Below, one piece after another: positions 9,843 to 49,234 of a stretch of DNA of 64,000 nt. Source of the stretch: an uncultured Candidatus Binatia bacterium. GTDB taxonomy: Bacteria > Desulfobacterota > Binatia > DP-6. Each line of letters starts with the position of its first letter. Position 1 is the stretch's first letter. Both the position numbers and the translations under genes were made by a program. Below the pieces are notes generated by a model. It did no database searches. It was given only the letters and a program-made list of their open reading frames with translations, and had not been told where the DNA came from. The stretch lies in NCBI GenBank assembly GCA_964432595.1, contig CAYSOF010000011.1, positions 47,757 through 111,756 on the forward strand. The letters are read 5' to 3'.

Positions 9843-10526
9843 CGGCCCGCTCGCGCGCCGTGCGGCCTTCCTGATCCTTCAACGACGCGTCGGCGCCGAG
9901 CGCGAGGAGCTTCGACGCCGTCGCCACGTTGCCCTTGGCGCAGGCGACGATCAGCGGCGTGTCGCCGAAGCGGTCGCGCACGTTCACGTTCGCCTGGCGC
10001 CCGGCCAGGAACGCGACGACGTCGACGCGATCGTTGAGCGCCGCGTGGAACAGCGGCGTGCGTCCCTGCTCGTCCGGGCGATCCGCCACGGCGCCCGCAC
10101 CGGCGAGATACTCGACGACGTCGAGCCGCCCGTCCGCCGCCGCGTAGCTGAGCGCCGTCCGCCCGCCCACGTCGGTCTCGTCGACCGCGGCGCCTCGTCC
10201 CTGGAGCCAGCGCGCCAGCTCGAGGTCGCCCGCGTCCATGACCGCCAGCATCACGACGCCGCGGCCGAGCTCGTCGTGCGCGTCGAGCGGGGCGCCGAGC
10301 TCGAGCGCCCGCTCGACGGTCCGCCGGTCGCCGCGACGGACCCCGTCGAGGAGCCGCTGCGCCATGGTGAACGTCTCGGGCGCGCGCGGCTCGCCCGTAC
10401 CCATGGCGAGGTTCCCGCCGCCACCCGTCCCACCCGTCGGGGTGGGAGGGCGCGCGGCGGGCGGCGCCGGCTCGTCGCCGCACGCGACGACGAGCAGCAG
10501 CGCCGCCAGCCAGGCTCGACGCGGCG

Positions 10527-19669: not shown

Positions 19670-19726
19670 GGCGCGCGATCGCCGCCTTGACCGGGCGGGG
19701 AGACGCGTCGTAGCGGTTGGCCCGCC

Positions 19727-22456
<2,730 letters not shown>

Positions 22457-22460
22457 CGCC

Positions 22461-25189
<2,729 letters not shown>

Positions 25190-25196
<7 letters not shown>

Positions 25197-25210
25197 CGTC
25201 GGGTTACCGG
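25190..25210 (+). terminator. hairpin spanning the stop codon of the second EBP
   Basis: ccggtaac-gtcgg-gttaccgg, a perfect 8-bp stem with no U-tract. Confidence 0.2.
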
Positions 25211-25469
25211 CGGGCGCCCGGCGCACGCGCGGCACGGCGCGACGTCCACGCCGTGCGGCGCCTGGCCCACGGCACGGGACTTGGAGCCACGACGGGCATG
25301 CCGTTGCCGCTCGATCCGCCCCCCCGCCGGCGTCCCGACGTCGCCGGATGGCTCCTCGTGCTCACCGGCGTGGTCGTGGTCGCGCTGCTCTTCGGGACGC
25401 TGCTGCTGGGAACGCTGCTCGCCACGTGGGGCTGACGGGCCATTTCCCTCCGGGCCGCCGATCGCATAC

Positions 25470-26651
25470 ATGGGCCGCCCCGTGACACGCCCGAACACGC
25501 CGGCCACCTTCGACATCGACGCCGTCGACCTCGACGCCTTCGCCCGCGACGTGCAGGCGCTCCGCAGCGAGCTGCGCGAGGCGCTCGGTCCCGACGACCT
25601 CCGCCATCTGCGCCGCATCGAGCGCTGGGGACGCATCGCCACCGCCGTCGGCCTGGCGACCGCATGGATCGCGCCGAACCCCGTCAGCGCGATCGGCCTC
25701 GGGCTCGGCCGCTCGAGCCGGTGGCTCCTGATGCACCACATCGGCCATCGCGGCTACGATCGCGTGCCCGGCGCACCGGCCCACCACACGTCGCGCGTGT
25801 TCGCGCGCGGCTGGCGCCGCCTGGTCCAGTGGGCCGATTGGATGGTGCCCGCCGCGTGGGTCTACGAGCACAACGTGCTGCACCACCAGCACACGGGCGA
25901 GCGCCGCGACCCGGACCTGATCGAGCAGAACGTCGCCGACATCCACGAGGCGCGCCTGCCGATGGCCGCACGCTGGGCGCTGCTCGGGCTGCTCGCCGCG
26001 ACGTGGCGCGCGTCGTACTACGCGCCCAAGACGCTGCGCGCGTGGTGGCACCGGCACGCCGCCGAGGACGCGCCGGCCGCCACGCCACGCGGCGTCTTCG
26101 TCCGCGCGTGCCTGGCGCCGTACGTGCTGCTGCAGCTCGTCGTCCTGCCGCTGCTGTTCGCGCCGCTCGGCGCATGGGCCGTCTTCTCGGCGTGGTGCAA
26201 CTCGCTGCTCGCCGACGTCGTCACCAACCTGCACACGTTCTTCGTCGTCGGTCCGAACCACAGCGGCGACGACGTGCTGCGCTTCGACGGCCCCGCCCGC
26301 TCGCGCGGCGAGTTCTACGTACGCCAGGTCGTCGGCTCGGTGAACTACCGGACGGGCGGCGACGTCGTCGACTTCGCGCACCTGTGGCTCAACTACCAGA
26401 TCGAGCACCACCTCTTCCCCGACCTGCCCATGCTCGCGTATCGCCGCGCGCAGCCGAAGGTCGCCGCGCTGTGCGCCCGCCACGGCGTCCCGTACCTGCA
26501 GGAGCCGGTCACGCGCCGCTTCGCGAAGATGGCGCGCATCTTCGTCGGCACCGCGCGCATGCCGTGGATGCGGGCGCCTGCCCCGCGACGCCGCGTCCGC
26601 CCCGTGCCGCTCGTCGCTGCGCGTACGGAGCCCGTCGCCGCCGAAGCCTGA
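25470..26651 (+). CDS. membrane fatty-acid desaturase
   Basis: Three His boxes (HHIGHRGY, HNVLHHQH, QIEHHLFP) and hydrophobic segments. 393 aa. Confidence 0.85.
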   Translation: MGRPVTRPNTPATFDIDAVDLDAFARDVQALRSELREALGPDDLRHLRRIERWGRIATAVGLATAWIAPNPVSAIGLGLGRSSRWLLMHHIGHRGYDRVPGAPAHHTSRVFARGWRRLVQWADWMVPAAWVYEHNVLHHQHTGERRDPDLIEQNVADIHEARLPMAARWALLGLLAATWRASYYAPKTLRAWWHRHAAEDAPAATPRGVFVRACLAPYVLLQLVVLPLLFAPLGAWAVFSAWCNSLLADVVTNLHTFFVVGPNHSGDDVLRFDGPARSRGEFYVRQVVGSVNYRTGGDVVDFAHLWLNYQIEHHLFPDLPMLAYRRAQPKVAALCARHGVPYLQEPVTRRFAKMARIFVGTARMPWMRAPAPRRRVRPVPLVAARTEPVAAEA

Positions 26652-26706
26652 GCGACGCGGCGCGGCGGCATTTTGGTCTTGCCGGGCGCCGGTCCCATGG
26701 GCTTGG

Positions 26707-28155
26707 ATGCGCGCCATGCGCATCCTCCTCCTGCTGGCGTCGCTCCTCCTCGTCCCGCGGCTCGCCGTATCGGCGGTCGCGGACCCGACCGTCGAAGGCC
26801 CCATCTCCGCCAGCACGGGCGGCGCCTTCATCGCCGGCACGACGTTCGACCTGGCCGACGTCGGCTACGTGCAGGAGGAGTTCTTCATCTCCGGCACCGC
26901 GACGGCGTTCACGTCGGCGAGCCCGCTCGCGTCGGACGGCGCGTGGTCGGTGACGCCGGCGAGCACGGCGGCGTACAAGACGCGCATCCTCGTGTATCGC
27001 CCGGCGCGCGCACGCTCGTTCGGCGGCACGGTCTTCGTCGAGTGGCTCAACGTCAGCGGCGGCCTCGACTCGGCGCCCGACTGGATCACCGCCCACATCG
27101 AGATGATCCGCGCCGGCATGGTGTGGGTCGGCGTCTCGGCGCAGTTCGTCGGCGTCGAGGGCGGCGGCGGCCTCGTCAGCCTGCCCCTCAAGAGCGTCAA
27201 CCCCCGGCGCTACGGCTCGCTCGTGCATCCGGGCGACAGCTACTCGTACGACATGTACTCGCAGGCCGGGCAGGCGCTGCGCGGGGCGTCGAGCGCGCGC
27301 ATCCTCGGCGGCCTCGTGCCCGAGGTCGTGATCGCCGCGGGCGAGTCGCAGTCGGCATCGCGCATGGTGACGTACGTGAACGGCATCCATCCGCTCGCCG
27401 GTGTCTTCGACGGCTTCCTGATCCACAGCCGCAGCGGCGGCGGCGCCCCCCTCGCGCAGAACCCCTTGCCGCCGATCAGCGTCGCGTCGCCGATGCGGAT
27501 CCGCACCGATCTCGACGTCCCCGTCTTCACCTTCCAGACGGAGACCGACGTCCCCAACTTCGTGGCGAGTCGCCAGCCGGACACGGACCGTCTCCGCCTC
27601 TGGGAAGTCGCGGGCACCGCACACGCCGACACCTACACGCTCGTCACCGGCATGACCGATCGCGGCGACGACCCGTCCGTCGCCGACGTCGTGATCATCT
27701 CCTCGCCGATCCCGGGCATCATCGACTGCGGCGCGCCGATCAACTCGGGGCCGCAGCATTTCGTGCTCGACGCCGCGCTCCACCATCTCGACCGCTGGAT
27801 ACGCCGCGGCACGCCGCCGCCGCACGGGCCGCTGCTCCAAACGCTGCCCGGCTCGACGACGTTCGCCACCGACGCGTTCGGGAACGTCCTCGGCGGCGTC
27901 CGGACGCCGTGGGTCGACGTGCCGGTGGCGACGCTGTCGGGCTTCGGCCAGCCGAGCGGCGGCAGCTTCTGCGGCCTCTTCGGCACGACCGTCGCCTTCG
28001 ACGACGCCACGCTCGACGCGCTCTACCCGTCGAACCGCATGTTCGTGCGCAAGTACCGCAAGGCGCTGACGCGGGCGGTGCGGTCCGGTTTCATGCGACG
28101 GCAGGACGCGACGCTGATCCGTCGGGGGCTCCGCGACGGCACCGTCGCCCCGTAG
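26707..28155 (+). CDS. secreted hypothetical protein (possible hydrolase)
   Basis: Signal peptide MRAMRILLLLASLLLVPRLAVSAVA. 482 aa, ordinary composition. Confidence 0.6.
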   Translation: MRAMRILLLLASLLLVPRLAVSAVADPTVEGPISASTGGAFIAGTTFDLADVGYVQEEFFISGTATAFTSASPLASDGAWSVTPASTAAYKTRILVYRPARARSFGGTVFVEWLNVSGGLDSAPDWITAHIEMIRAGMVWVGVSAQFVGVEGGGGLVSLPLKSVNPRRYGSLVHPGDSYSYDMYSQAGQALRGASSARILGGLVPEVVIAAGESQSASRMVTYVNGIHPLAGVFDGFLIHSRSGGGAPLAQNPLPPISVASPMRIRTDLDVPVFTFQTETDVPNFVASRQPDTDRLRLWEVAGTAHADTYTLVTGMTDRGDDPSVADVVIISSPIPGIIDCGAPINSGPQHFVLDAALHHLDRWIRRGTPPPHGPLLQTLPGSTTFATDAFGNVLGGVRTPWVDVPVATLSGFGQPSGGSFCGLFGTTVAFDDATLDALYPSNRMFVRKYRKALTRAVRSGFMRRQDATLIRRGLRDGTVAP

Positions 28156-36636: not shown

Positions 36637-36820
36637 CGAGCGCTCCGATGCCGGAGCCGGTCGGCACGTCACACCACGACGCGGGGCTGCCACGTCCCGG
36701 ACGTAGCCCATCCGCGCACGGAAAACATCTCGGGCCTGCCGCCCTTCCCCGGGTTCCGCCCGGCGTTCTCCCGTCATGTCAGGAGTACACGGATGCGGCG
36801 ATTCGCGGATAACGATCGTC

Positions 36821-39544
36821 ATGCGTGCTCTCGCCGTCCTGCTCGCCCTCGCGCTGCCCTCGCTCGCCCTGGCCCAGGCCGCACGGAACGTCGAGCCCGT
36901 CGTCCTGACCGGCGCCGAGGTGCCGGCGTGGTCGCGGCTTCCCGCCCTCACCGTGTGCGCCCCGTATCCCTCGGGCACGACCGGCGGCCGCGACGCGCAC
37001 AACGGCACGACCATCGTCCCGCCCGACGTTCGCACCGGCGTCGCCGTCGACGACGTCGTGGCGTTCCGCTGGACGGGGCTCGCCTGGGTCGAGATCCGGG
37101 TGCAGGTCGACGAACGCTTCGACTACTGCCTGTCGAACCCGCCGTCGGACTTCGCGCTGTACTCCGGCACGGACAAGGAGCTCACGTACGCGTGGGACGT
37201 CGAGAGCTGGAAGAAGACCGACGGCCAGTGCGTCGCCGCCTATCCGCCCGGCGCCGCGCCGACGCCGGATCCCGTCGCCACGCTCGACGACGACGACGAG
37301 ATCGTCTTCATGGCGAGCGACGCGGGCCAGCAGGCGCCGCTGGCGGTGCTGACGCCGCCCGGCACCAGCAACGGCCAGGCGGTCGCCGTGGTCGACCCGT
37401 TCGATCCCACGGCGCCGGCGTTCGTCTACCTCTTCCTGCGCGCCGGCGGCTCGTCGTTCGACGCGTCGAGCGGCTACGTCGACTATACGCGCGATGCGAA
37501 CGCCGACGAGTGGATCGATCGCCACTCGATCGCCGCCGACGACCCCGAGATCCTCGGCGTCAGCAACACCGGCTACGGCCCGAACCTGCCCGGCGACGTC
37601 TGCCGCACGGCCGTGTCGCCCGGCTATCCGGCGACGCCCGACGGTGCGCCGCGCCCGTCGACGGACCGCTTCGTGCGCGACGGCGTCACCGTCGCCACCG
37701 ACGCCTACGAATGGCGCGCGACCGGCCGTTGGATGGTGCGCGGCCTGCGCGTCGCGAAGCCCGGACAGCCGGGCGTCTACGGCCCCGACCTGATCGACCG
37801 CTGGAAGGGGCGCGCGTTCCAGCAGAGCCCCGACTCGACGATCTCGCTCGTCGGCTTCGAGGACGAGCAGGTGAACTGGGAGGCGAACAGCGCGCTCCTC
37901 GGCGAGCGCGTCGGGCCGGTGCGCGCGATCCGCGAGGTGTGGGGCGCCGACTCGGGCACCAACGTCACGAAGACCGAAACCTTCTATCGCGACGCGGTGG
38001 CGTACCGGTACCACGTGCGCGTCCATCCCATCCCGCCCGACGGCCTCTACACGTCGTGGGACTACAACGCCGGCGTCGCCACGCGGTACTACAACCTGCT
38101 GAAGCCGAACGGCGTCGCGATCGACGGCGTCAACGACGACGTCGGCAACGTCGACGGCCTCTTCGGCGTTCCCGCGTTCTTCGATGCGCCCGACCCGACG
38201 TTCAACGTGCCGAGCGCGATCCTCAACTGGGAGCAGATCTCGGGCGCCGGCGACGCCGGCGCGCTCGTCTACATCCTCGAGCTGAAGGGCGCGACGACGC
38301 TCGTGAACCCGGCCGTCGTGCCGTACTACCGCGACGACAAGTGCCTCGACGACGGCACGGGCGACGACCCGGTCGCGCGGCCCTGGCCCGGCGAGGCGTC
38401 GACCGACCCGCGCGTGCAGGCCGGCTATGCCGCCGCGGCGGGCGGCACGCCCTACCCGCAGCTCACGTGCGACCAGAAGCAGGGCGCCTGGGGCGCGCAC
38501 GGCGTCCACTACTTCGTCACCGGCGACAGCGACAACGCCGCGTCGCCCGAGGTGCTGACGGAGATCGACGCGCAGCAGTGGCAGTTCACCGTGCCGACGG
38601 CGGCGCCGGCGAACGTCGCGCAGCCCTACGCGAACACGGTGATCCTGCCGCTCCTGACGGTCGTCACGCCGATCGTCGGCCCGCCGCCGCTGCTCGCGCC
38701 GAGCGCGGCCGACGCGTCGGCCGTCACGCCGCAGGACACGCCGGTCGGCGTGACGCTCGCGGGCGGCGATCTCCTGACCTGCGAGCTCGGCTTCACGATC
38801 GTGACGCCGCCCGCGCACGGCACGCTCGGCGCGATCACGGGCGAGGCATGCACGCTCGGCCTGCCGTCGTCGGACACCGCGCGCGTCACCTACACGCCGG
38901 AGCCGGGCTACGCCGGCAGCGACGCGTTCACGTACCGCACGAACGACGGTCTGTTCGACTCGTCGCCGGCGTCCGTGTTCCTCACCGTCGAGCCGCTGCC
39001 GCCGCCGACCTGCGCGAACGGACCCGTCGTCGGCTGCCGGCGGCCGGTGCGGACGGACAAGGCGACGCTGTCGGTGACGGACCGCTCGCCCGACGTGAAC
39101 GACGAGCTGACGTGGAAGTGGACCGCCGGCGCGGCGACGACGCTCGCCGACTTCGGCACGCCGCTCACGACGACGAGCCATCAGCTGTGCGTCTACGACG
39201 GCGCAGGCGACACGGTCGCTCGCGCGAGCGTGCCGCCGGGCGGGACGTGCGACGGCCGGCCGTGCTGGTCGGCGAAGGGCAGCCGCTATCTGTACCGGAG
39301 CCGCGAACGCGTTCCCGGCGGCGGCAAGCGCAGCACGCTCCGGCTGACGCTCGCGGCCGGCATCGACGGCAAGGCGAAGATTCTCCTGAAGGGCCGCGGC
39401 GTCCACTTCGGGCTCGACGCCCTCCCCTGGGCGCAGCCCGTCGTCGTGCAGCTGAAGAACGGCGAGGGCGAGTGCTGGGAGGCACGGTACGACGCGCCGG
39501 CGCGGCGCAACCAGCCGGGACGGTTCCTCGACAAGGGTGACTGA
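36821..39544 (+). CDS. large secreted protein with Ig/cadherin-like domain and C-terminal recurrent beta-domain
   Basis: Signal peptide MRALAVLLALALPSLALAQA. Ig-like unit (VTYTPEPGYAGSDAFTYRTNDG). C-terminal ~180 aa domain shared with four other proteins in the window. Confidence 0.75.
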   Translation: MRALAVLLALALPSLALAQAARNVEPVVLTGAEVPAWSRLPALTVCAPYPSGTTGGRDAHNGTTIVPPDVRTGVAVDDVVAFRWTGLAWVEIRVQVDERFDYCLSNPPSDFALYSGTDKELTYAWDVESWKKTDGQCVAAYPPGAAPTPDPVATLDDDDEIVFMASDAGQQAPLAVLTPPGTSNGQAVAVVDPFDPTAPAFVYLFLRAGGSSFDASSGYVDYTRDANADEWIDRHSIAADDPEILGVSNTGYGPNLPGDVCRTAVSPGYPATPDGAPRPSTDRFVRDGVTVATDAYEWRATGRWMVRGLRVAKPGQPGVYGPDLIDRWKGRAFQQSPDSTISLVGFEDEQVNWEANSALLGERVGPVRAIREVWGADSGTNVTKTETFYRDAVAYRYHVRVHPIPPDGLYTSWDYNAGVATRYYNLLKPNGVAIDGVNDDVGNVDGLFGVPAFFDAPDPTFNVPSAILNWEQISGAGDAGALVYILELKGATTLVNPAVVPYYRDDKCLDDGTGDDPVARPWPGEASTDPRVQAGYAAAAGGTPYPQLTCDQKQGAWGAHGVHYFVTGDSDNAASPEVLTEIDAQQWQFTVPTAAPANVAQPYANTVILPLLTVVTPIVGPPPLLAPSAADASAVTPQDTPVGVTLAGGDLLTCELGFTIVTPPAHGTLGAITGEACTLGLPSSDTARVTYTPEPGYAGSDAFTYRTNDGLFDSSPASVFLTVEPLPPPTCANGPVVGCRRPVRTDKATLSVTDRSPDVNDELTWKWTAGAATTLADFGTPLTTTSHQLCVYDGAGDTVARASVPPGGTCDGRPCWSAKGSRYLYRSRERVPGGGKRSTLRLTLAAGIDGKAKILLKGRGVHFGLDALPWAQPVVVQLKNGEGECWEARYDAPARRNQPGRFLDKGD

Positions 39545-39612
39545 GCGCATGCCGGGTGCGCCGAGCTTTTGCCGTTGACCTCCGTGGGCGCCGATCCGTA
39601 CAGTCCGGACGC

Positions 39613-42441
39613 ATGTGGCTCGTCCCGCGTGTCCTGGCGGGGTGCGCGCTCCTGCTCCTGTGCGGGTCGCGCGCGACGGCCGCGCTCGTCCTCGACGCGG
39701 CGACGGTCACGGTCCGCCCGGCACGCACCGACTCGTTTCAGCTGAAGGGCCGGCTCGGACCCACGTCGCTCGACGGCGCCACCGCGATCACCGTCGCGCT
39801 GGGACCGTTCTCGATGCAGGTCCCGCTCGACCGGGTGAAGCGGAAGAAGCAGCTCGTCACCTTCCGCGACAAGGCGCCCGGCGCGCGCATCAGCCGGCTG
39901 CGCCTGGACCTGCGGCGCGGCACGTTTCTGGTCGTCGGCGACGAGTGGGTGCTCGCGAACCTGCCGAACCCGCTCGACGTCGCGGTAGGGACGACCGCCG
40001 GCGCGGACTGCCGGACGGTGCGCCTCGAGAACCCGAAGGCGCGACGGCCGCGGAAGCGCGCGCCGTCCGTCGTCCGTCTCGTGCTGGCCAAGAACGGCGA
40101 CGCCGGCGCCTGCGGCACGCTCGCGGCGCCGCGCCCGCGTCCGGTCGCCGTCGTCGCCGGCACACCGACGTCGGTGCTGTTCGAGGTCGACGCGACGACC
40201 GTCGACGCGGGCAGCGTCCAGCTCGTCCGCCTGGACGCGGCCGGCCGCCCGACCGGCGAGCCGGTGTGCACGATGACGTCGGACGGGGCGCGGCTCTCCT
40301 GTACGACGACGATCGCCGAGACGTCGCCGGGCGACGTCACCTTGTTCGTCCGCGGCACCGCGGGGGGCGCGCCGGTGGCGTCGACGGGCTTCGTCCTGCC
40401 GATCGTGCCGCCGCGCAGCGCGGCGGACGCCGCGATGCTCGCGCAGGCCGACGCCGGCGTCGTCCAGGCACGCGACGACGCGTTCGCCCGGCTCGGCGAC
40501 ACGCTCGCCGCGCGCATGGCGCTGCTGCGCGCGCTCGCCGCGGTGCCGGGCATCTCCGGCGCCGCGCTCAGCCCGAACGGCGTCGACGTCGTCTACCGCT
40601 ATGCGAACGGCTGGCTCGGCGGGCTGATCCTGAACCGCGGCCTCGGCACCATCCCCACGCCGTCGGTGGCGACGACCCGTCCGGCCGCCGTGCGCCCGCG
40701 CCCATCGCCCCGCGTCCTCTTCCGCACGTGCGGCGGCGCCGAAGGCGTCTGCTGTCAGCCGAAGGATCGGCGCCAGGCGCTGCTCCGACGCAACGTCCTC
40801 GTCTGGGACGCGGGCTACTTCGGGCCGGGCCGAGACGACGCGCCGGTCGTCGCCGCCAAGTTCGCCGAGTGGGCGTGCCTGGGCCACCAGGTGACGACCG
40901 TCTTCGGCGCCGCCGCGACCGTCGCGTCGGTGAAGCAGTTCACGAGCGCCGCGACGCTCGTGATCTCCACGCACGGCGTGGTGAACAAGTACGGCCGCGT
41001 GATGTTCGCCACCGGCGAGACGATCTCCGACAGCCGCGACGAGCTTCACCACGACGACCTGGTCTTCGGCCTGGTCGGACGGTACCCGATGACCGACACC
41101 GTCGGCATCTACACGGTCTCCGAGGACTTCGTCCGCGTGCTGCCCGGGAGCTTTCCCGAGCGCGCGATCGTCTACGCGAGCTATTGCTACAGCGGCTACG
41201 AGGACGCACTCGCGGCGTACGTGTCGAAGGGCGCGGGCGTCGCGTTCGGCTACGACTGGAAGGTGCACGACACCTACGCGATCGACGTCGCGACGCAGCT
41301 GTTCGACGGCCTGCTCGCCGGCTTCAAGACGGCCGGCGACGCGTACGACGCCGTCGAGCCGAAGCGCGACCCCACTCCGCTGACCGGCTCGCTGCCCGGG
41401 CGCGAGCCCGACACGTGGCTCGAGTTCACGCTGCCCGCCTCCTTCGTCTCGCAAGGCAACCAACGGATCGCCTACGTCGCCCAGCCCGACATCACGCCCG
41501 ACGCGTCGACCGTCGGCCCCGGCGAGTCGGCGACGCTGACCGCGTCCGCAGAGGGCGCGGGGACGTGCCCGCTCGAGTACCACTGGTACACGGAGGGCAC
41601 CGCCGGCGACCTCACGGGCGATACGGGGACGAACGACTTCGAGTCGACGGAGCCGACCGCCACCTACACCGCCCACGAGGAGCCCGACGCCGACGACGAC
41701 GCGGTCGCGGTCGAGCTGTCGTCGCCAGAGAGCGACGGCATCGGCACGAGCTGCGCCGAGGCGAGCGTCGTGACGACGTCGACCAGCAGCACGACGACGA
41801 CGTCGACGACGGTGCCGACCTGCGGTGCGGGCGTCGTGCTGTCGGCCGTCGTCACCGAGGAGATCCTCGCCGGCGCGTTCGCCACGTCGATGGGAACGAA
41901 CGATCAGCATCCGTTCACGTTCCCGCAGACGGCGATCCCCGTCACGCCGACGGCGAACGACGCGAAGCCGTGGAACGAGGTCGCGACGGCCGGCGGTGCC
42001 GCCGCGACCAGTATCGGCGACATCAGCTGGACCGTCGCCCCCTGCGCGATCACCGCGAGCGGCACGTTCGAGGAGTCGAGCATCGGCGGCTCGGCCACCG
42101 CGGCGGCGCAGACGGGACTCGACGCCACGCTGCAGATCGCCTTCGAGGTGTCGCGCGAGGCGCCGTATCACCTCGAGGGCTTCGTCCAGGCCTCCGGCAC
42201 GGCGAAGGACGGCGACAACACGGTCTTCTACGCGCGCTGCTCGGCCAACGGGATCGGCATCGTCGAGGCGAGCCTGCAGAACCCGACCGGCGTCCCCGTC
42301 CCGTTCGAGCGCGACAGCACCGCCTTCCCGGGCGAGGAGCTCATGATAATTTGCGGCGTCAAGCGCGGCGGCGCCAGCGCCGACGGCACCGGCGACGACA
42401 TGGGGACCGTGGACTGGAGCTTCACGTTCACGTTCCAGTGA
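39613..42441 (+). CDS. large secreted protein with N-terminal recurrent beta-domain and clan-CD (caspase/gingipain-like) peptidase-like domain
   Basis: Signal peptide MWLVPRVLAGCALLLLCGSRATA. His/Cys dyad context RNVLVWDAGY...ATLVISTHGVVN...AIVYASYCYSGY. Thr-rich linker. Confidence 0.7.
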   Translation: MWLVPRVLAGCALLLLCGSRATAALVLDAATVTVRPARTDSFQLKGRLGPTSLDGATAITVALGPFSMQVPLDRVKRKKQLVTFRDKAPGARISRLRLDLRRGTFLVVGDEWVLANLPNPLDVAVGTTAGADCRTVRLENPKARRPRKRAPSVVRLVLAKNGDAGACGTLAAPRPRPVAVVAGTPTSVLFEVDATTVDAGSVQLVRLDAAGRPTGEPVCTMTSDGARLSCTTTIAETSPGDVTLFVRGTAGGAPVASTGFVLPIVPPRSAADAAMLAQADAGVVQARDDAFARLGDTLAARMALLRALAAVPGISGAALSPNGVDVVYRYANGWLGGLILNRGLGTIPTPSVATTRPAAVRPRPSPRVLFRTCGGAEGVCCQPKDRRQALLRRNVLVWDAGYFGPGRDDAPVVAAKFAEWACLGHQVTTVFGAAATVASVKQFTSAATLVISTHGVVNKYGRVMFATGETISDSRDELHHDDLVFGLVGRYPMTDTVGIYTVSEDFVRVLPGSFPERAIVYASYCYSGYEDALAAYVSKGAGVAFGYDWKVHDTYAIDVATQLFDGLLAGFKTAGDAYDAVEPKRDPTPLTGSLPGREPDTWLEFTLPASFVSQGNQRIAYVAQPDITPDASTVGPGESATLTASAEGAGTCPLEYHWYTEGTAGDLTGDTGTNDFESTEPTATYTAHEEPDADDDAVAVELSSPESDGIGTSCAEASVVTTSTSSTTTTSTTVPTCGAGVVLSAVVTEEILAGAFATSMGTNDQHPFTFPQTAIPVTPTANDAKPWNEVATAGGAAATSIGDISWTVAPCAITASGTFEESSIGGSATAAAQTGLDATLQIAFEVSREAPYHLEGFVQASGTAKDGDNTVFYARCSANGIGIVEASLQNPTGVPVPFERDSTAFPGEELMIICGVKRGGASADGTGDDMGTVDWSFTFTFQ

Positions 42442-42790
42442 GCGCCCGATAGCGCGCGAGGAGCCGCCGGCCCTTGGCGGCGATGCGGCATGCTGCCGCC
42501 ACCGTCTTCGGCACGGGTTCGCCCCACGCCGCGGCGCTGAGCGCGAAGCGCGTCGGCCTACCCTTGGCGTCGACCAGCTTCGGGAGCGTCGCGCCGGCAG
42601 GCCGCCGTGCGGGTCTTTGGTCTTCTTCCGTGCAAGGTCTTCCGCTTGGCCGGCGCCTTGCGCTTCGCTGTCGATCGCGTCCGCTTGGGCTTCGGCCGGT
42701 CCCACGGCGCGTTTCGCTTCCGTGTGGCCATGCCCGGACGCTATCCCCGCCGCCCTCGACGTCAATCTCCCATCGCAGTATGGAGGCGCC

Positions 42791-43360
42791 ATGACCCTGA
42801 ACGAGCTGCTCAACACCCCGAACGTGACGCCCGAACGCGTCCAGTCCCATCTCGCCTCGCTCTCCGGCGACGAGCGCGTCCGCCAGGCCACGCAGCTCGA
42901 TCGCCGCCATCACAAGGCGCTCTGGGATCTGTCCGCCAACACCCCGCCCATCCAGCTCGAGGAGGTCGTCGGGACCGAGCGGGCGCCGCTCGATCCCGTG
43001 CCGTTCGAAGGCCAGAACAACCAGCCGATCTACCGCCCCTTCAAGAAGGTCTTCTACCGCACGACGAACGGCACGATCGGGGGCTACAACGACAGCCCGG
43101 CCGCGTGGTTCGCGGGCCCCGGCTACTACCTGCTGAAGCGCGACGACTCCGGCGTCTACGTCGACTATACGGAGGTCCCGAAGGACAAGCCGGCGTCGTG
43201 GCCGCCGATCAAGCCGAACGACACGGGCATCTCCCAGTTCGTGTACGGCCACATGAAGGACTACCTGCGGCGCGTGTACGGCCGCGTCTTCATCGGCCGC
43301 GCCTATCGCAAGGGCAAGGAGTCGCCGAACTTCTTCGTCCTCGCGCGCCCGGAGGTATGA
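42791..43360 (+). CDS. hypothetical protein (189 aa)
   Basis: ggagg RBS and an ATG start. K/N/Y-containing composition. First gene of a three-gene co-directional set. Confidence 0.55.
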   Translation: MTLNELLNTPNVTPERVQSHLASLSGDERVRQATQLDRRHHKALWDLSANTPPIQLEEVVGTERAPLDPVPFEGQNNQPIYRPFKKVFYRTTNGTIGGYNDSPAAWFAGPGYYLLKRDDSGVYVDYTEVPKDKPASWPPIKPNDTGISQFVYGHMKDYLRRVYGRVFIGRAYRKGKESPNFFVLARPEV

Positions 43361-43602
43361 CCAGGGCCGCCGTCGCCGTCGGGCTCGTCCTCGTCGTCGG
43401 CGCGCCGGCGCTCGGGCAGCTCGCGCCCGGCTGGCCCGCGGACGACCGTCCCGGCCAGGCTCTCGATCGACAGCGCGGCGAGTCGCTCGACGACTACCAC
43501 CGGCGCCTCGAGCAGTGGCGCGACAGCTCGCACGACGAGCGTCGCGAGATGCTCGATCGCCGCCCCGGCAGTGGGGGCGCCGGCGAGGAGCCCGAGGAGT
43601 AG
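43357..43602 (+). CDS. small secreted protein (81 aa)
   Basis: ATGA overlap with the upstream gene. Signal peptide MTRAAVAVGLVLVVGAPALG. Charged C-terminal half. Confidence 0.45.
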   Translation: MTRAAVAVGLVLVVGAPALGQLAPGWPADDRPGQALDRQRGESLDDYHRRLEQWRDSSHDERREMLDRRPGSGGAGEEPEE

Positions 43603-43607
43603 CGGCC

Positions 43608-44534
43608 ATGTCGCCCGCCACCGTGCCGCTCGCGACCGGGCTCGGCGTGTGGATCGGTGCCGCGCTGTACGTGCACTGGCGGGGCCGCGAGCGCTTGAGC
43701 TTCATGCGGCAGCTCGCCGATCACTCGACGCTGCTCGCGCCCTACAACGCGTTCGTCTACCTCTGCTCGGCCGTCCCCCGGCGTCCGCGGCTGGACGTCG
43801 ACGCGTTCCCCGAGCTGCGCGTGCTGCGGGAGAACTGGCAGACGATCCGCGACGAGGGCCTGGCGCTCCATGCCGCCGGCCACGTCCGCGTGGCGGAGCG
43901 GCACAACGACCTCGCGTTCAACTCGTTCTACAAGCGCGACTGGCGCCGCTTCTATCTGAAGTGGTACGGCCGCCCCCTGCCCTCCGCGACGTCGCTGTGT
44001 CCGCGCACGGTCGAGCTCCTCGCCCACACGCCGAGCGTGCACGCCGCGATGTTCACGATGCTCGCGCCGAAGAGCCACCTCGTGCGGCATCGCGACCCCT
44101 TCGCGGGCTCCGTACGCTTCCATCTCGGCCTGTCGACGCCGAACTCCGACGACTGCCGCATCTTGATCGACGGCGAGCCGTATCACTGGCGTGACGGCGA
44201 AGCGGTGGTCTTCGACGAGACCTACATCCACCGCGCCGAGAACCGTACCGACATGCCGCGGTTGATCCTGTTCTGCGACGTCGAGCGCCCGCTGCGCGGG
44301 CGTCTCGCCACCGCGATCAACCGGTTCGCGATCCATCGGGTGATGGGCATCACGGCGACGGCGAACGTCGACGGCGAGCCCGTGGGCATCGCCAACCGCG
44401 TGTTCGAGCGCGTGTACCACGTGCGCCTGCTCATGAAGCGCCTGCGCAAGCGCAGCCGCCCCCTCTACTACGCGCTGTCCTGGGGCACGAAGCTCGGCGT
44501 GGCGGCCCTGCTCGTCTGGCTCGCGCTCGGCTAG
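43608..44534 (+). CDS. aspartyl/asparaginyl beta-hydroxylase-family 2OG-Fe(II) oxygenase, membrane-anchored (LpxO/OlsC-like)
   Basis: N-terminal TM LATGLGVWIGAALYVHW. AspH-family core (LAPKSHLVRHRDPFAGSVRFHLGL...ETYIHRAEN). Confidence 0.8.
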   Translation: MSPATVPLATGLGVWIGAALYVHWRGRERLSFMRQLADHSTLLAPYNAFVYLCSAVPRRPRLDVDAFPELRVLRENWQTIRDEGLALHAAGHVRVAERHNDLAFNSFYKRDWRRFYLKWYGRPLPSATSLCPRTVELLAHTPSVHAAMFTMLAPKSHLVRHRDPFAGSVRFHLGLSTPNSDDCRILIDGEPYHWRDGEAVVFDETYIHRAENRTDMPRLILFCDVERPLRGRLATAINRFAIHRVMGITATANVDGEPVGIANRVFERVYHVRLLMKRLRKRSRPLYYALSWGTKLGVAALLVWLALG

Positions 44535-44612
44535 GGAGAGAGAGTCGCAGACCGCACAGCATGCCGTCTTTTTCGTTGACCGCCGAAAGCGGCCGACGGT
44601 ACGTATTCCGGG

Positions 44613-47600
44613 ATGCGCATCGCGGCTCTGCTCCTGGCCTGCGCCATCGCGACCCACGCGTTCGCCGCCTCCGGCGACCTCGACCCGACGCTGCTCGGCG
44701 GTCGCGTGCAGACCGACTTCGACGGCTGGTTCGACCAGGCGCAGGCGGTCGTGGTGCAGCCCGACGGCGCGATCGTCGCCGCCGGACTCGTGCGGCGGAA
44801 GATCGGCGAGACGGGCGGCGGCATCCCGCTCTTCCGGGCCGAGCTGGGCCTCGTGCGCTACACGGCGACGGGCGCGATCGACGAGACGTTCGGCGACGAG
44901 GGCATCGTCCGCACCGACTTCGGCGAGGACGTCGACGTGCGCGTGCTGTTGCGCGATCCCGCCGACGGCGACCTGATCGCCGTCGGCAACACGCCGTCGT
45001 TCCCGCGGAAGGTCGTCTTCGCGCGTTACGCGGCGAACGGAACAGCCGACACGAGCGTCGGCGGCGGCACCGGACGCGTCGTCACGGCGGTACCGGGCTT
45101 CGCCTACGCGGGCTACGTGCGTGCCGACGGCACGATCATGATCGGCGGCAGCGGCCTCAACTTGAGCGGCTTCGACGCCTTCCTGCTCGCACGCTTCCTG
45201 GCGAACGGCACGCCCGATCCGGCCTTCGACGGCGACGGGTTTCTGATCTCCAGCCAGGGCGCGGCCATCCGCGGCATGTTCGAGGAGCCGGACGGCGACG
45301 TCGTCGTCGGCGGCTGGGTGCAGAGCGGGAGCATGAACGGCTTCCGCAACGTCGTCGTCGCGCGCTTCACCGCTGCCGGCGCCGTCGACAACGGCTTCGG
45401 CCCGAGCGGCACCGGCCGCACGGTGATCGACTACTTCAACTCCGAGGACGAGGGCCGCGCGCTGACGCGGCTCGCCGACGGCCGGCTCGTCGTCGCGGGC
45501 TTCGCGATCCAGGGCTCGGGCGTGAGCGCGCAGAAGCACTTCGCCCTCGCGTGGCTCGACGCGAACGGCGTCCTCGACCCCGCCGTCGCCGGCGGCACCG
45601 GCAAGGTGACGACCGACGTCGTCGGCGACGGCATCGTGCGCAACCTGCTCGTCCAGTCGGCCGGCGTCGTCGCGGTCGGCGAAACCGGGTCGGGCCTCGA
45701 GGTCACGGCGCTCGCGAGCGACGCCCCGGAGCTGACGCTCGTCCGCTACGGCGCGACGGGCTCGATCGACGCGGCGTTCGGCGACGACGGCACGATCACG
45801 CACCGCCTGCGCGCGACGGAGGCGCCGCGCGCCGCCGTGCTCCAACCGGACGAGAAGCCCGTCGTCGTCGGGCGCGTGCGCGAGGACTGGCACGTGCTGC
45901 GGCTGACGCCCACCGGCCAGGCCGACACCACGTTCGGCAGCGGCGGCCGCGTCCTCATCCAGGGGGACGAGTTCCTCCAGGCCTCCGGGGGGGCGCTCCA
46001 GGACGACGGCAAGATCCTCGTCGCGGGCAGCGGCCTCTGCCGCGTCGACTGCGCCGTGTTCCAGTTCCAGCAGCGCATGGCGCTCACCCGGCACCTGCCC
46101 GACGGCCGGCTGGACGCCCAGTTCGGCGAGCTCGGCCTCGCGATGCCGACGTTCACCAGCGCCAGCTCGCAGGTCGCGATGGGCGCGGTCGTCCTGCCCG
46201 ACGACACGATCCTCGCCGGCGGGACGTCGCGCGCGGCGGTGTTCGGCGAGGACGACGACTTCGCGGTCGCGCACCTGGGCGCGGACGGCACGCCCGACGC
46301 CGCGTACGGTACCGGCGGCCTCGCCCTCGCCGACTTCGCGGGCGGCGACGACGTCGCCGTCGGGATGACCGTGCAGCCCGACGGCAAGGCGATCCTCGTC
46401 GGCGAGGTGCCGCAGGGCAACGGCATCGTGTTCGGCGTCGCGCGCTTCACCACCGCCGGCCAACCCGATCCGACCTTCGGCGGCGACGGCACGGTCACGA
46501 CCGACCTGCCGGGAGTCATCGACCGCGCCCAGAGCGTCATCGTCCAACCCGACGGCACGATCGTCGTCGTCGGCACGAGCTACGACGACCAGTCGGGCGT
46601 CGTCGCCCTGGTGCGTTACACGTCGACCGGCACGCCCGATCCCGCGTTCGGGACGAACGGCATCGTGCTGACGCCGGTGACCGCCAACTTCGACGGCGGC
46701 GCCGACGTCATCCGCCGCGGCGACGGGACGCTGGTCGTGTCCGGCTGGGTCGACTTCGGCGGCGACGAGGACTTCCTCCTGCTCCGCTACCTCGAGAACG
46801 GCACGCTCGATGGTTCGTTCGGCACCGGCGGCATCACCCGCACCGACCCGTTCGGCTTCCACCGCACCGACGAGGCGATCACGCTGACGGAGGCGCCCGA
46901 CGGCCGGCTGCTCGTCATCGGCGACACGGTCCACGCGACGGACGACTTCGTCGTCGCGCGCTTCAGCGCGGGCGGCGTCCTCGACACCGCCTTCGGCGCG
47001 GGCGGGCACATGCTCGTCGACCTCTTCTCCACGCCGGACTACGATCCGCGCGCGGCGCTCCTGCAGCCCGACGGCCGGCTCGTCGGCATCGGCACGACCG
47101 ACGGCATGGGCTTCTTCCGCATGGAAATGGCGGGCGGCCCGCAGGCCACGTTCCCGCCGACGCCACCGTCCACGACCACGAGCACGACCGTGCCCGGCGG
47201 CTCGACGACCACCACGACGACGACGGTTCCGGGCGGCACCACCACGACCACCACGACGACGGTCCCCGGCGGCACGACGACGACCACCACGACCCTGCCC
47301 GCCAGCGCCGAGATCTGCGGCAACTGCGTCGACGACGACGGGGACGGCGACGTCGACTACGACGACGCGCAGTGCTGCGCCGCCACCGGCGCGCTGTCGG
47401 TGCGAAAAGCGCAGCTCAAGCCCGGCACGGCGGGCACGAAGCTGAAGCTCACGGCACAGCTCGGCGGCGCGGGCTTCGCGACCGTCGACCCGACCGGCGC
47501 CGATCTCTACGTCCGGCTCGCCGCGGGCGACGGCACGACGCTCCTCTGCACGCGGATTCCCGCGGCGAGCGTGAAACGCAAGAAGAAGGGCTTCCAGTTC

Positions 47601-47831
47601 GCCGACAAGGGCGGCTCCGTGGCGTCGGGAATCTCCAGCGTCAAGGGCAAGCTCCTGAAGACGCAGCAGCTCCAGCTCGTCATCCAGGGGAAGCGCGCGC
47701 GGACGGGCACGCCGGCGGCGGGCGCCATCGGGCTCACGCTGGCGTACGACGCGGGCGCACGCGGACAGTGCGCAAGCGCGGTGCAGACGTTCCGCACGAT
47801 CGGCAAGAACAAGGGCGTCCGCTACCCCTGA
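44613..47831 (+). CDS. delta-60 repeat domain secreted protein
   Basis: Signal peptide MRIAALLLACAIATHAFA. About 14 repeats of ~60 aa with D[PT]xFGxxG cores (DETFGDEGIV, DPAFDGDGFL, DTTFGSGGRV, DPTFGGDGTV...). Poly-Thr linker and C-terminal recurrent domain. Confidence 0.85.
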   Translation: MRIAALLLACAIATHAFAASGDLDPTLLGGRVQTDFDGWFDQAQAVVVQPDGAIVAAGLVRRKIGETGGGIPLFRAELGLVRYTATGAIDETFGDEGIVRTDFGEDVDVRVLLRDPADGDLIAVGNTPSFPRKVVFARYAANGTADTSVGGGTGRVVTAVPGFAYAGYVRADGTIMIGGSGLNLSGFDAFLLARFLANGTPDPAFDGDGFLISSQGAAIRGMFEEPDGDVVVGGWVQSGSMNGFRNVVVARFTAAGAVDNGFGPSGTGRTVIDYFNSEDEGRALTRLADGRLVVAGFAIQGSGVSAQKHFALAWLDANGVLDPAVAGGTGKVTTDVVGDGIVRNLLVQSAGVVAVGETGSGLEVTALASDAPELTLVRYGATGSIDAAFGDDGTITHRLRATEAPRAAVLQPDEKPVVVGRVREDWHVLRLTPTGQADTTFGSGGRVLIQGDEFLQASGGALQDDGKILVAGSGLCRVDCAVFQFQQRMALTRHLPDGRLDAQFGELGLAMPTFTSASSQVAMGAVVLPDDTILAGGTSRAAVFGEDDDFAVAHLGADGTPDAAYGTGGLALADFAGGDDVAVGMTVQPDGKAILVGEVPQGNGIVFGVARFTTAGQPDPTFGGDGTVTTDLPGVIDRAQSVIVQPDGTIVVVGTSYDDQSGVVALVRYTSTGTPDPAFGTNGIVLTPVTANFDGGADVIRRGDGTLVVSGWVDFGGDEDFLLLRYLENGTLDGSFGTGGITRTDPFGFHRTDEAITLTEAPDGRLLVIGDTVHATDDFVVARFSAGGVLDTAFGAGGHMLVDLFSTPDYDPRAALLQPDGRLVGIGTTDGMGFFRMEMAGGPQATFPPTPPSTTTSTTVPGGSTTTTTTTVPGGTTTTTTTTVPGGTTTTTTTLPASAEICGNCVDDDGDGDVDYDDAQCCAATGALSVRKAQLKPGTAGTKLKLTAQLGGAGFATVDPTGADLYVRLAAGDGTTLLCTRIPAASVKRKKKGFQFADKGGSVASGISSVKGKLLKTQQLQLVIQGKRARTGTPAAGAIGLTLAYDAGARGQCASAVQTFRTIGKNKGVRYP
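47187..47294 (+). repeat. imperfect 36-39-bp tandem repeat x3 encoding the TVPGG(S)T7-8 linker
   Basis: Units accgtgcccggcggctcgacgaccaccacgacgacgacg / gttccgggcggcaccaccacgaccaccacgacgacg / gtccccggcggcacgacgacgaccaccacgacc. Confidence 0.6.
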
Positions 47832-48306: not shown

Positions 48307-48378
48307 GGACCGTCCTCCTCCGTAGGGCCTGGACGCCGCGGCGAGCCGTCGCAAGCGGTTTGACCGCCGCCGCACGCG

Positions 48379-49234
48379 ATGCGACACGCGCACATGCCCG
48401 CCCGGCTCGTGCAGCTGCATCGCTTCCCGGTGAAGGGCCTGCGACACGAGCCGATGCAGACCGCCGTCCTCGCGCCCGGGCAGGGCCTGCCGGGCGATCG
48501 ACGCTTCGCCGTCGCTCGCGGCGACACGCGCTGGACGGCGGACTCCCCGCGCTGGCTGCCGAAGCAGTGGTTCGTCATGCTCATGCGCGACACGGCGCTG
48601 ACCCGCGTTCAGGCGCGCGTCGACGGCACGAGCATCGCGCTCACCATGGACGGCCGCGACGAATGCCGCGCGTCGTGGGCGACGTCCGAGGGGCGCACCC
48701 GACTGGACGACTGGCTCAACGACGTCCTCGGCCCGCGTCGCGAGGGCCGCGCGCGCCTCGTCGAAGCCGGTGAGACGTCGCTCACCGACGTCCCGCAGAA
48801 CTGCCTGTCGTTGCTGAACCTGGAAAGCGCGTGACCTCGGCCGCCGGATGGGCTGCGAGATCGATCCGCTGCGATTCCGCGCGAACCTCCTCGTCGACGG
48901 CGTGCCGGCCTGGCGCGAGTTCGATTGGATCGGCCAGGACGTCAGGCTGGGCGACGTCACGCTGTCCATACCGGCCCGCATCCCACGCTGCACCGCGACC
49001 GCGGTGAACCCGGCGACCGGCGCGCGCGACGTGAACGTCGTGCGGGGGCTCCGCACGGCGTTCGGACACTACGACGTGGGCGTGTACGCCGAGGTCGTCC
49101 GCGGGGGAGCGCTCACCGTCGGCGACGAGCTGACGCCGCCCGACGCGCCCGAGTCGCGGTCGTGGGCGGGCCACTGGCTGCGCTTCCTCGGCTTCCTGGC
49201 GCGCGGCGCGCCCGACGTGTTCCGTCGCGGCTGA
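48379..49234 (+). pseudogene. MOSC-domain protein interrupted by a -1/+2 frameshift near 48825-48835
   Basis: ORF 48379-48834 (MOSC N-terminal beta-barrel) ends ...SLLNLESA*. The next frame continues RDLGRRMGCEIDPLRFRANLLVDG...RCTATAVNPATG (MOSC core with conserved Cys). Confidence 0.7.

What the first reader, a model, noticed from the sequence alone, without database searches (positions are those of the whole stretch)
42791..44534. Three-gene set: unknown protein, small secreted peptide, membrane-anchored AspH/LpxO-like hydroxylase, directly upstream of the delta-60 protein
Translational coupling (ATGA at 43357; 5-nt gap at 43603-43607) links a 189-aa unknown protein, an 81-aa signal-peptide protein with a charged tail, and an aspartyl/asparaginyl beta-hydroxylase-family enzyme with an N-terminal TM helix. 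AspH homologs in bacteria hydroxylate lipid A (LpxO) or ornithine lipids (OlsC), and in some RiPP pathways hydroxylate Asp in peptides. The small exported protein is a possible substrate. The next gene encodes a protein with an Asp-rich Cys motif (CGNCVDDDGDGDVDYDDAQCC). The target (lipid vs peptide) is open.
Basis: partly seen in the sequence, partly recalled or inferred. Interest (0 to 1): 0.5.

Follow-up and report, generated by a model that had tools for sequence, protein, structure and literature searches.

The report
LpxO-type lipid hydroxylase, unlinked neighbours
The three genes are real and tightly packed, but the enzyme is an ordinary LpxO-type membrane lipid hydroxylase, and its two upstream neighbours travel with it only in very close relatives, so this is not a conserved peptide-modifying gene set.

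Summary
Three same-strand genes lie at A 42791-43360 (189 aa), B 43357-43602 (81 aa) and C 43608-44534 (308 aa), with an ATGA overlap and a 5-nt gap, and all three look coding.

C matches NCBIfam's lipid A hydroxylase LpxO model end to end (404 bits; cut-off 500). It scores only 108 bits on the ornithine-lipid OlsC model. It is 50-60% identical to proteobacterial LpxO-like proteins and keeps the Fe/2-oxoglutarate residues.

The trio is not a conserved module.
- About 40 loci carrying A-family genes, up to 85% identity, have no hydroxylase nearby.
- 33 genomes with C homologues have no A or B.
- C orthologues at 82-85% and 70-76% identity sit in other contexts.
- A-B-C is seen only where C is at least 90% identical.

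A is a conserved unknown: a helical N-terminal region plus a calycin-like beta-barrel, closest to Tcur_1030.

B is a real, fast-evolving, near-orphan small protein. One orthologue lacks the signal-like segment.

Most likely C 2-hydroxylates an acyl chain of lipid A or a related acyloxyacyl lipid. A peptide target is unlikely. Interest is low.

The parts
42791..43360 (+). Gene A, 189 aa, cytoplasmic. It belongs to a conserved family of unknown function. The model shows an N-terminal helical region plus a C-terminal calycin/lipocalin-like beta-barrel, distantly DUF4334-like.
43357..43602 (+). Gene B, 81 aa. A small protein with a signal-peptide-like N-terminus and an acidic/basic tail. It is near-orphan and fast-evolving.
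   Evidence: The ATGA overlap with A is. dN/dS is 0.22 in frame against 1.5 and 3.7 out of frame. A word-indexed search of 5.8 billion proteins gave only 3 hits. A full HMMER search of 1.84 billion representatives added one 76-aa relative at 45% identity. The L039 orthologue has in-frame deletions that remove the hydrophobic segment.
43608..44534 (+). Gene C, 308 aa. An LpxO-type membrane-bound Fe(II)/2-oxoglutarate-dependent acyl-chain 2-hydroxylase.
   Evidence: Pfam Asp_Arg_Hydrox, E 3e-48. NCBIfam LpxO NF033391, 403.8 bits, residues 13-304 on profile positions 6-297 of 297; OlsC model 107.9 bits. It is 46-61% identical to LpxO-like genes in 33 genomes. His161, His208 and Arg218 align with conserved residues of human AspH.

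Best explanation
Gene C encodes an LpxO-type inner-membrane dioxygenase that uses Fe(II), 2-oxoglutarate and O2. It most likely adds a 2-hydroxyl group to a secondary (acyloxyacyl) fatty acyl chain of lipid A. Genes A and B are unrelated neighbours. They came to lie upstream of C recently, in one narrow lineage, and are probably co-transcribed with it only because the spacing is tight.

Shown here: the gene structure, the family assignment, the conserved catalytic residues, and the lack of conserved linkage.

Inferred: the actual substrate (lipid A), the membrane topology, and co-transcription.
For: Evidence that C is an LpxO-type enzyme:
- It matches the LpxO equivalog model end to end at 403.8 bits, E 3.5e-121. 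The OlsC model scores 107.9 bits.
- Calibration with the same model places it in a continuum of full-length LpxO-like proteins: Serratia 555, Oxalobacteraceae 509, Burkholderia 475, Mucilaginibacter 470, Bradyrhizobium 440, Pyrinomonadaceae 437, Planctomycetia 362.
- Its 50-58% identity to proteobacterial homologues is in the same range as the ~46-56% identity reported between the P. aeruginosa lipid A 2-hydroxylases LpxO1/LpxO2 and LpxO of related bacteria (PMC10865791).
- The Fe/2OG residues are conserved against human AspH.
- An apolipoprotein N-acyltransferase gene (Lnt) in the window fits a diderm envelope.

Evidence against a module:
- A-family loci, about 40 with at least 0.9 kb downstream and six of them at 77-85% identity, never carry C or B.
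- C homologues in 33 genomes carry no A or B.
- C at 85% identity follows a divergent FAD-oxidase-like gene. C at 82% has 181 bp upstream with no match to A or B.
- C at 70-76% identity directly follows a DsbA-like gene.
- The A-B-C order is seen only where C is at least 90% identical.
Against: - The score is below NCBIfam's curated LpxO cut-off (404 against 500).
- LpxO homologues can act on other lipids. The Brucella/Ochrobactrum 'lpxO' is in fact the ornithine-lipid hydroxylase OlsC (PMC5767591).
- The source organism is unidentified, and its lipid A pathway could not be examined.
- One of the closest named relatives (73% identity) comes from a genome bin labelled 'Candidatus Limnocylin...' (name truncated in the output; all matching taxa belong to the Limnocylindria group). 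As far as I know that group belongs to the Chloroflexota, which are not known for LPS.
- Tight coupling of A, B and C is kept in at least four related contigs, so a lineage-specific functional link cannot be excluded.
Confidence: 0.68

Rival explanations
1. C hydroxylates an acyl chain of a different membrane lipid, such as an ornithine lipid or another acyloxyacyl aminolipid, rather than lipid A. This would be an OlsC-like function in an LpxO-like protein.
For: Brucella microti and Ochrobactrum LpxO homologues were shown to be ornithine-lipid hydroxylases (PMC5767591). C is below the LpxO equivalog cut-off. A 73%-identical relative comes from a bin labelled 'Candidatus Limnocylin...' (truncated name).
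Against: The OlsC model scores only 107.9 bits against a cut-off of 450, and covers only the catalytic core. The LpxO model is matched over its full length. No ols genes lie in the window.
Confidence: 0.2
2. A, B and C form a lineage-specific functional unit. For example, the barrel protein A binds a lipid or cofactor, and the small protein B modulates or anchors the hydroxylase.
For: The ATGA overlap and the 5-nt gap are kept in related contigs. B is under purifying selection. A has a ligand-binding-type barrel. A more distant B relative exists whose context could not be retrieved.
Against: No co-occurrence is seen beyond relatives with C at least 90% identical. The A family is widespread without any hydroxylase. 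B loses its hydrophobic segment and 14 internal residues in L039, while A and C stay 98% and 92% identical.
Confidence: 0.07
3. C is a peptide Asp/Asn beta-hydroxylase whose substrate is B or the Asp-rich Cys motif of the downstream delta-60 protein. This is the RiPP-like or AspH-like reading.
For: C shares the catalytic domain with human AspH (E 6e-15). B has 8 Asp. The delta-60 protein has an acidic Cys-rich motif, with a weak acid_disulf_rpt match at E 0.0075.
Against: Similarity to AspH is limited to the catalytic core, residues 70-228. The whole protein matches the lipid hydroxylase LpxO. B has no Cys or Asn and no EGF-type motif. Neither B nor a delta-60 protein accompanies C orthologues elsewhere. 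No protease, transporter or other maturation gene lies nearby. From memory, the LpxO catalytic domain faces the cytoplasm, whereas B and the delta-60 protein look exported.
Confidence: 0.04

Closest known systems
LpxO, the lipid A 2-hydroxylase of Salmonella, Klebsiella, Pseudomonas (LpxO1/LpxO2), Acinetobacter and Burkholderia
   Same: About 300 aa. The alignment to the LpxO model is end to end and includes the N- and C-terminal hydrophobic segments. C has the Asp_Arg_Hydrox catalytic domain with conserved His/His/Arg. It is 50-58% identical to proteobacterial family members.
   Different: The score is below the curated equivalog cut-off (404 against 500 bits). It comes from an uncultured, 72% GC, non-enterobacterial lineage. 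The substrate and the presence of lipid A in the host are unverified.
OlsC, the ornithine-lipid ester-linked acyl 2-hydroxylase of Rhizobium tropici, Brucella microti and Ochrobactrum
   Same: Same superfamily and same chemistry: 2-hydroxylation of an acyloxyacyl chain. It illustrates that LpxO homologues can act on free lipids (PMC5767591).
   Different: The OlsC model scores only 108 bits against a cut-off of 450, and aligns only with the catalytic core, residues 53-231.
Human aspartyl/asparaginyl beta-hydroxylase (AspH) and, from memory, soluble AspH-like hydroxylases of lanthipeptide pathways such as CinX
   Same: The catalytic fold and the Fe/2-oxoglutarate-binding residues.
   Different: Only residues 70-228 align. 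C has no TPR or EGF-recognition part. No peptide pathway genes are nearby, and there is no conserved link to a precursor peptide.
Tcur_1030 (PDB 4mve) and the DUF4334 family, compared with gene A
   Different: Sequence identity is 16%. All Pfam scores are below threshold (16 against 25 bits for A). A has an extra N-terminal helical region. Neither family has a known function.

Membership tests
LpxO (lipid A hydroxylase, NCBIfam NF033391) | Asp_Arg_Hydrox (PF05118) catalytic domain | tested here: met
   E 3.1e-48, 164 bits, residues 75-228 on profile positions 2-157 of 157.
LpxO (lipid A hydroxylase, NCBIfam NF033391) | Full-length architecture: about 300 aa with a hydrophobic segment at each end | tested here: met
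   Residues 13-304 align to profile positions 6-297 of 297. The C-terminal segment 289-307 has a Kyte-Doolittle mean of 1.6. The N-terminal segment 5-22 averages about 1.5 by my own hand calculation from the sequence.
LpxO (lipid A hydroxylase, NCBIfam NF033391) | Score at or above the curated equivalog cut-off (500 bits) | tested here: not met
   403.8 bits. In calibration only Serratia (555) and an Oxalobacteraceae protein (509) pass. Burkholderia sp., Mucilaginibacter, Bradyrhizobium and an acidobacterial homologue score 437-475.
LpxO (lipid A hydroxylase, NCBIfam NF033391) | Conserved Fe(II) and 2-oxoglutarate ligands | tested here: met
   His161, His208 and Arg218 align with the conserved His, His and Arg of human AspH. 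That these are the metal and 2OG ligands is from my own knowledge of AspH.
LpxO (lipid A hydroxylase, NCBIfam NF033391) | Host makes lipid A carrying a 2-hydroxylated secondary acyl chain | not testable with these tools
   The source genome was not retrievable. No lpx genes lie in the 64-kb window. Lnt is present, which fits a diderm envelope.
OlsC (ornithine-lipid hydroxylase, NF052565) | Score at or above the curated cut-off (450 bits) | tested here: not met
   107.9 bits, core only.
Peptide-modifying (RiPP-like) gene cluster | The precursor peptide co-occurs with the modifying enzyme across lineages, together with maturation or export genes | tested here: not met
   B is absent from all 37 other C-bearing loci. 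Neighbouring genes are Ig-like or delta-60 surface proteins, SnoaL and MOSC.
Conserved operon or functional module A-B-C | Gene order is kept beyond close relatives | tested here: not met
   The order is present only where C is at least 90% identical. It is absent at 82-85% and 70-76% C identity, and in about 40 A-family loci.
DUF4334 (PF14232), for gene A | Pfam gathering score (25 bits) | tested here: not met
   16 bits, E 0.012. 37 of 54 relatives give similarly weak matches, best E 0.0012. The fold is closest to 4mve.

The most novel reading that the evidence does not exclude
The small B-family protein (conserved core LAPGW..D...DR...WR...D.RR..LD) is a previously unrecognised partner, regulator or substrate of LpxO-type hydroxylases in this uncultured lineage. 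The barrel protein A might act as a lipid or cofactor carrier in the same system.
Probability: 0.06. Interest if true: 0.45.

Novelty: new member of a known kind. Interest (0 to 1): 0.14.

Why it matters
It matters little beyond annotation. The hydroxylase can be labelled an LpxO-like lipid acyl 2-hydroxylase, not a peptide hydroxylase. This suggests that an uncultured high-GC bacterium remodels its envelope lipids in an oxygen-dependent way.

Two minor by-products are worth recording:
- a well-conserved 189-aa family with a confident helix-plus-barrel model and no known function;
- a young, fast-evolving small gene that shows how tight translational coupling can arise between unrelated neighbours.

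Tried and rejected
- Exact look-ups of C and B to find the source contig returned nothing, so the organism and its lipid A genes could not be examined.
- The afdb50 fold library was unavailable.
- I tested whether B is a remnant of the DsbA-like gene that precedes C in L088. There is no similarity.
- I looked for the DNA origin of B in the upstream regions of L088, L090 and L091. Only chance-level matches appeared.
- A profile of B searched against all ORFs of all 91 loci found nothing new.
- No Rfam family and no sigma-70-like promoter was found in 42300-44750. The two terminator-like hairpins found are at chance level.
- A has no sequence-level relative in the PDB.
- The paper that established LpxO topology (Gibbons et al. 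2008) and a Raetz review were not held. The statement that the LpxO active site faces the cytoplasm therefore rests on my memory.
- The two large genes upstream (36707-39544 and 39556-42441) are not paralogues.

Full report
**Observation**

The region holds three same-strand ORFs exactly as described.
- A runs 42791-43360 (189 aa).
- B runs 43357-43602 (81 aa). Its ATG overlaps the TGA of A, giving ATGA at 43357-43360.
- C runs 43608-44534 (308 aa), five bases after the TAG of B.

All three have the codon-position GC pattern of real genes in this 72% GC window. GC3 is 0.94, 0.91 and 0.95, and GC2 is 0.43-0.52. Each start is preceded by a GGAGG or GAGGAG motif.

B could have been a spurious ORF in such GC-rich DNA. 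I therefore compared it with the orthologous metagenomic contig L039.
- Substitutions give dN/dS 0.22 in the annotated frame, and 1.5 and 3.7 in the other two frames.
- The two length differences are in-frame deletions of 48 and 42 nt.

B is therefore translated.

**The hydroxylase (C)**

Pfam gives Asp_Arg_Hydrox at E 3e-48. NCBIfam gives the equivalog model 'lipid A hydroxylase LpxO' at 403.8 bits. Residues 13-304 align to profile positions 6-297 of 297, so the match includes both terminal hydrophobic segments. The ornithine-lipid OlsC model gives 107.9 bits on the catalytic core only. The score is below the LpxO cut-off of 500.

I calibrated the cut-off with homologues from other genomes, fetched.

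| Source of homologue | LpxO model score (bits) |
|---|---|
| Serratia | 555 |
| Oxalobacteraceae | 509 |
| Burkholderia sp. | 475 |
| Mucilaginibacter | 470 |
| Bradyrhizobium | 440 |
| Pyrinomonadaceae | 437 |
| L088 and L089 orthologues | about 395-400 |
| Planctomycetia | 362 |

All of these align full length. C therefore sits inside a continuum of LpxO-architecture proteins. The cut-off mainly separates gamma- and betaproteobacterial members.

C is 46-61% identical to these homologues. That is the same range as the ~46-56% identity reported between the P. aeruginosa lipid A 2-hydroxylases LpxO1/LpxO2 and LpxO of related bacteria (PMC10865791).

Against solved structures, only residues 70-228 match human AspH (E 6e-15). 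His161, His208 and Arg218 align with conserved His, His and Arg.

**Gene A**

A belongs to a conserved family of about 189 aa. It has 86 homologues and no Pfam domain. The named sources are 'bacterium' and 'Polyangiaceae bacterium' genome bins.
- A 54-sequence alignment gave an AlphaFold2 model with mean pLDDT 95.6. It shows four N-terminal helices followed by an eight-stranded barrel.
- 37 of 54 members give weak sub-threshold DUF4334 matches.
- There is no signal peptide or membrane segment.

Its function remains unknown. A small-ligand-binding role is only a guess from the fold.

**Gene B**

A word-indexed search of 5.8 billion proteins found three members only: B itself, one at 79% identity and one of 51 aa. 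A full HMMER profile search of 1.84 billion representatives added one 76-aa relative at 45% identity (P0215). It shares the signal-like N-terminus and the LAPGW..D / WR..D.RR..LD core.

In L039, A is 98% and C is 92% identical to the window, yet B has lost the hydrophobic segment and 14 internal residues. B is therefore a real but young and weakly constrained small protein. Its export is not a constant feature.

**Are the three genes a unit?**

They appear together only in very close relatives:
- a 15-kb contig that is syntenic from the Big_9 gene through the delta-60 gene to the SnoaL gene, with A 92% and C 93% identical;
- a 2.2-kb contig;
- L039;
- probably a 1.8-kb contig that carries A at 87% and C at 90% identity, judged only from matching contig lengths.

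Beyond that the linkage is gone.
- Of about 53 loci with A-family genes, 41 have at least 0.9 kb downstream. Six of those are at 77-85% identity. None has C or B.
- None of 33 genomes with C homologues has A or B within 6 kb.
- C at 85% identity (L091) is preceded by a divergent FAD-oxidase-like gene.
- C at 82% identity (L090) has 181 bp of upstream sequence with no match to A or B.
- C at 76% and 70% identity (L088, L089) directly follows a DsbA-like gene near seryl-tRNA synthetase.

**Context**

The neighbours are two large Ig-like or Big_9 proteins, a delta-60 repeat protein (13 repeats, 387 bits), a SnoaL-like gene and a split MOSC gene. There is no protease, ABC exporter, radical-SAM or other peptide-maturation gene. 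No lpx or ols genes lie in the window. An Lnt gene fits a diderm envelope. Rfam and promoter scans of the region gave nothing, and the two terminator-like hairpins found are at chance level.

**Mechanism**

The best-supported reading is that C is an LpxO-type inner-membrane Fe(II)/2-oxoglutarate dioxygenase. [quoted passage not shown] The main rival is another acyloxyacyl lipid such as ornithine lipid (about 0.2). That rival is kept alive by three points:
- the Brucella/Ochrobactrum precedent, where an 'lpxO' homologue proved to be OlsC (PMC5767591);
- the sub-cut-off score;
- a 73%-identical relative from a genome bin labelled 'Candidatus Limnocylin...' (the name is truncated in the output).

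A lineage-specific A-B-C module (about 0.07) and a peptide target (about 0.04) are not excluded, but nothing found here supports them.

Shown: the gene structure, the family, the conserved residues and the absence of conserved linkage. Inferred: the substrate, the topology (from my memory of Gibbons et al. 2008, which was not held) and co-transcription.

**Verdict**

This is an ordinary LpxO-like lipid hydroxylase, a new member of a known kind. It lies next to a conserved unknown protein and a near-orphan small gene. Interest is low (0.14).

Noticed in passing
window 42431-42731, minus strand: The 350-bp gap upstream of A holds a weak DUF6321 match (E 0.0011) in one minus-strand frame and a 57-aa very basic ORF (42558-42731) in another. 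The syntenic contig of P0001 has an intact 188-aa DUF6321 gene at this position. This looks like a frameshifted or shortened remnant.
   Followed up: partly
window 48364-49234, plus strand: The MOSC_N domain (48364-48834) and the MOSC domain (48818-49234) are encoded in two overlapping frames. This could be a frameshifted or split MOSC gene, or a sequencing error near 48830.
   Followed up: no
window 19691-22456 and 22419-25196, plus strand: Two tandem genes of about 920 aa are 56% identical over 910 residues. The second carries a sigma-54 activator domain. The long N-terminal regions look hydrophobic by eye but were not tested.
   Followed up: partly
L088 4013-5930 and L089 4010-5927: In the nearest non-syntenic orthologues of the hydroxylase (70-76% identity), the gene directly follows a 328-329-aa DsbA/thioredoxin-like gene with a 1-nt gap. 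This conserved pairing is absent from the window.
   Followed up: no
P0215 (76 aa, on a 1,300-bp JGI contig): This is the only more distant relative of the small protein B (45% identity, with a signal-like N-terminus and the LAPGW motif). Its genomic neighbours could not be retrieved.
   Followed up: partly
window 44613-47831, plus strand: The delta-60 repeat protein (13 repeats, 387 bits) ends with threonine-rich 'TTTTTTTVPGG' linkers and an acidic Cys motif. That motif only weakly resembles the acidic double-disulfide repeat (E 0.0075). It stays next to C only in the closest relative.
   Followed up: partly
window 8220-9878 (minus) and 25197-28155 (plus): An apolipoprotein N-acyltransferase (Lnt) gene suggests a diderm-type envelope. 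A fatty-acid desaturase gene lies next to an Abhydrolase_10 gene about 16 kb upstream of the hydroxylase.
   Followed up: no
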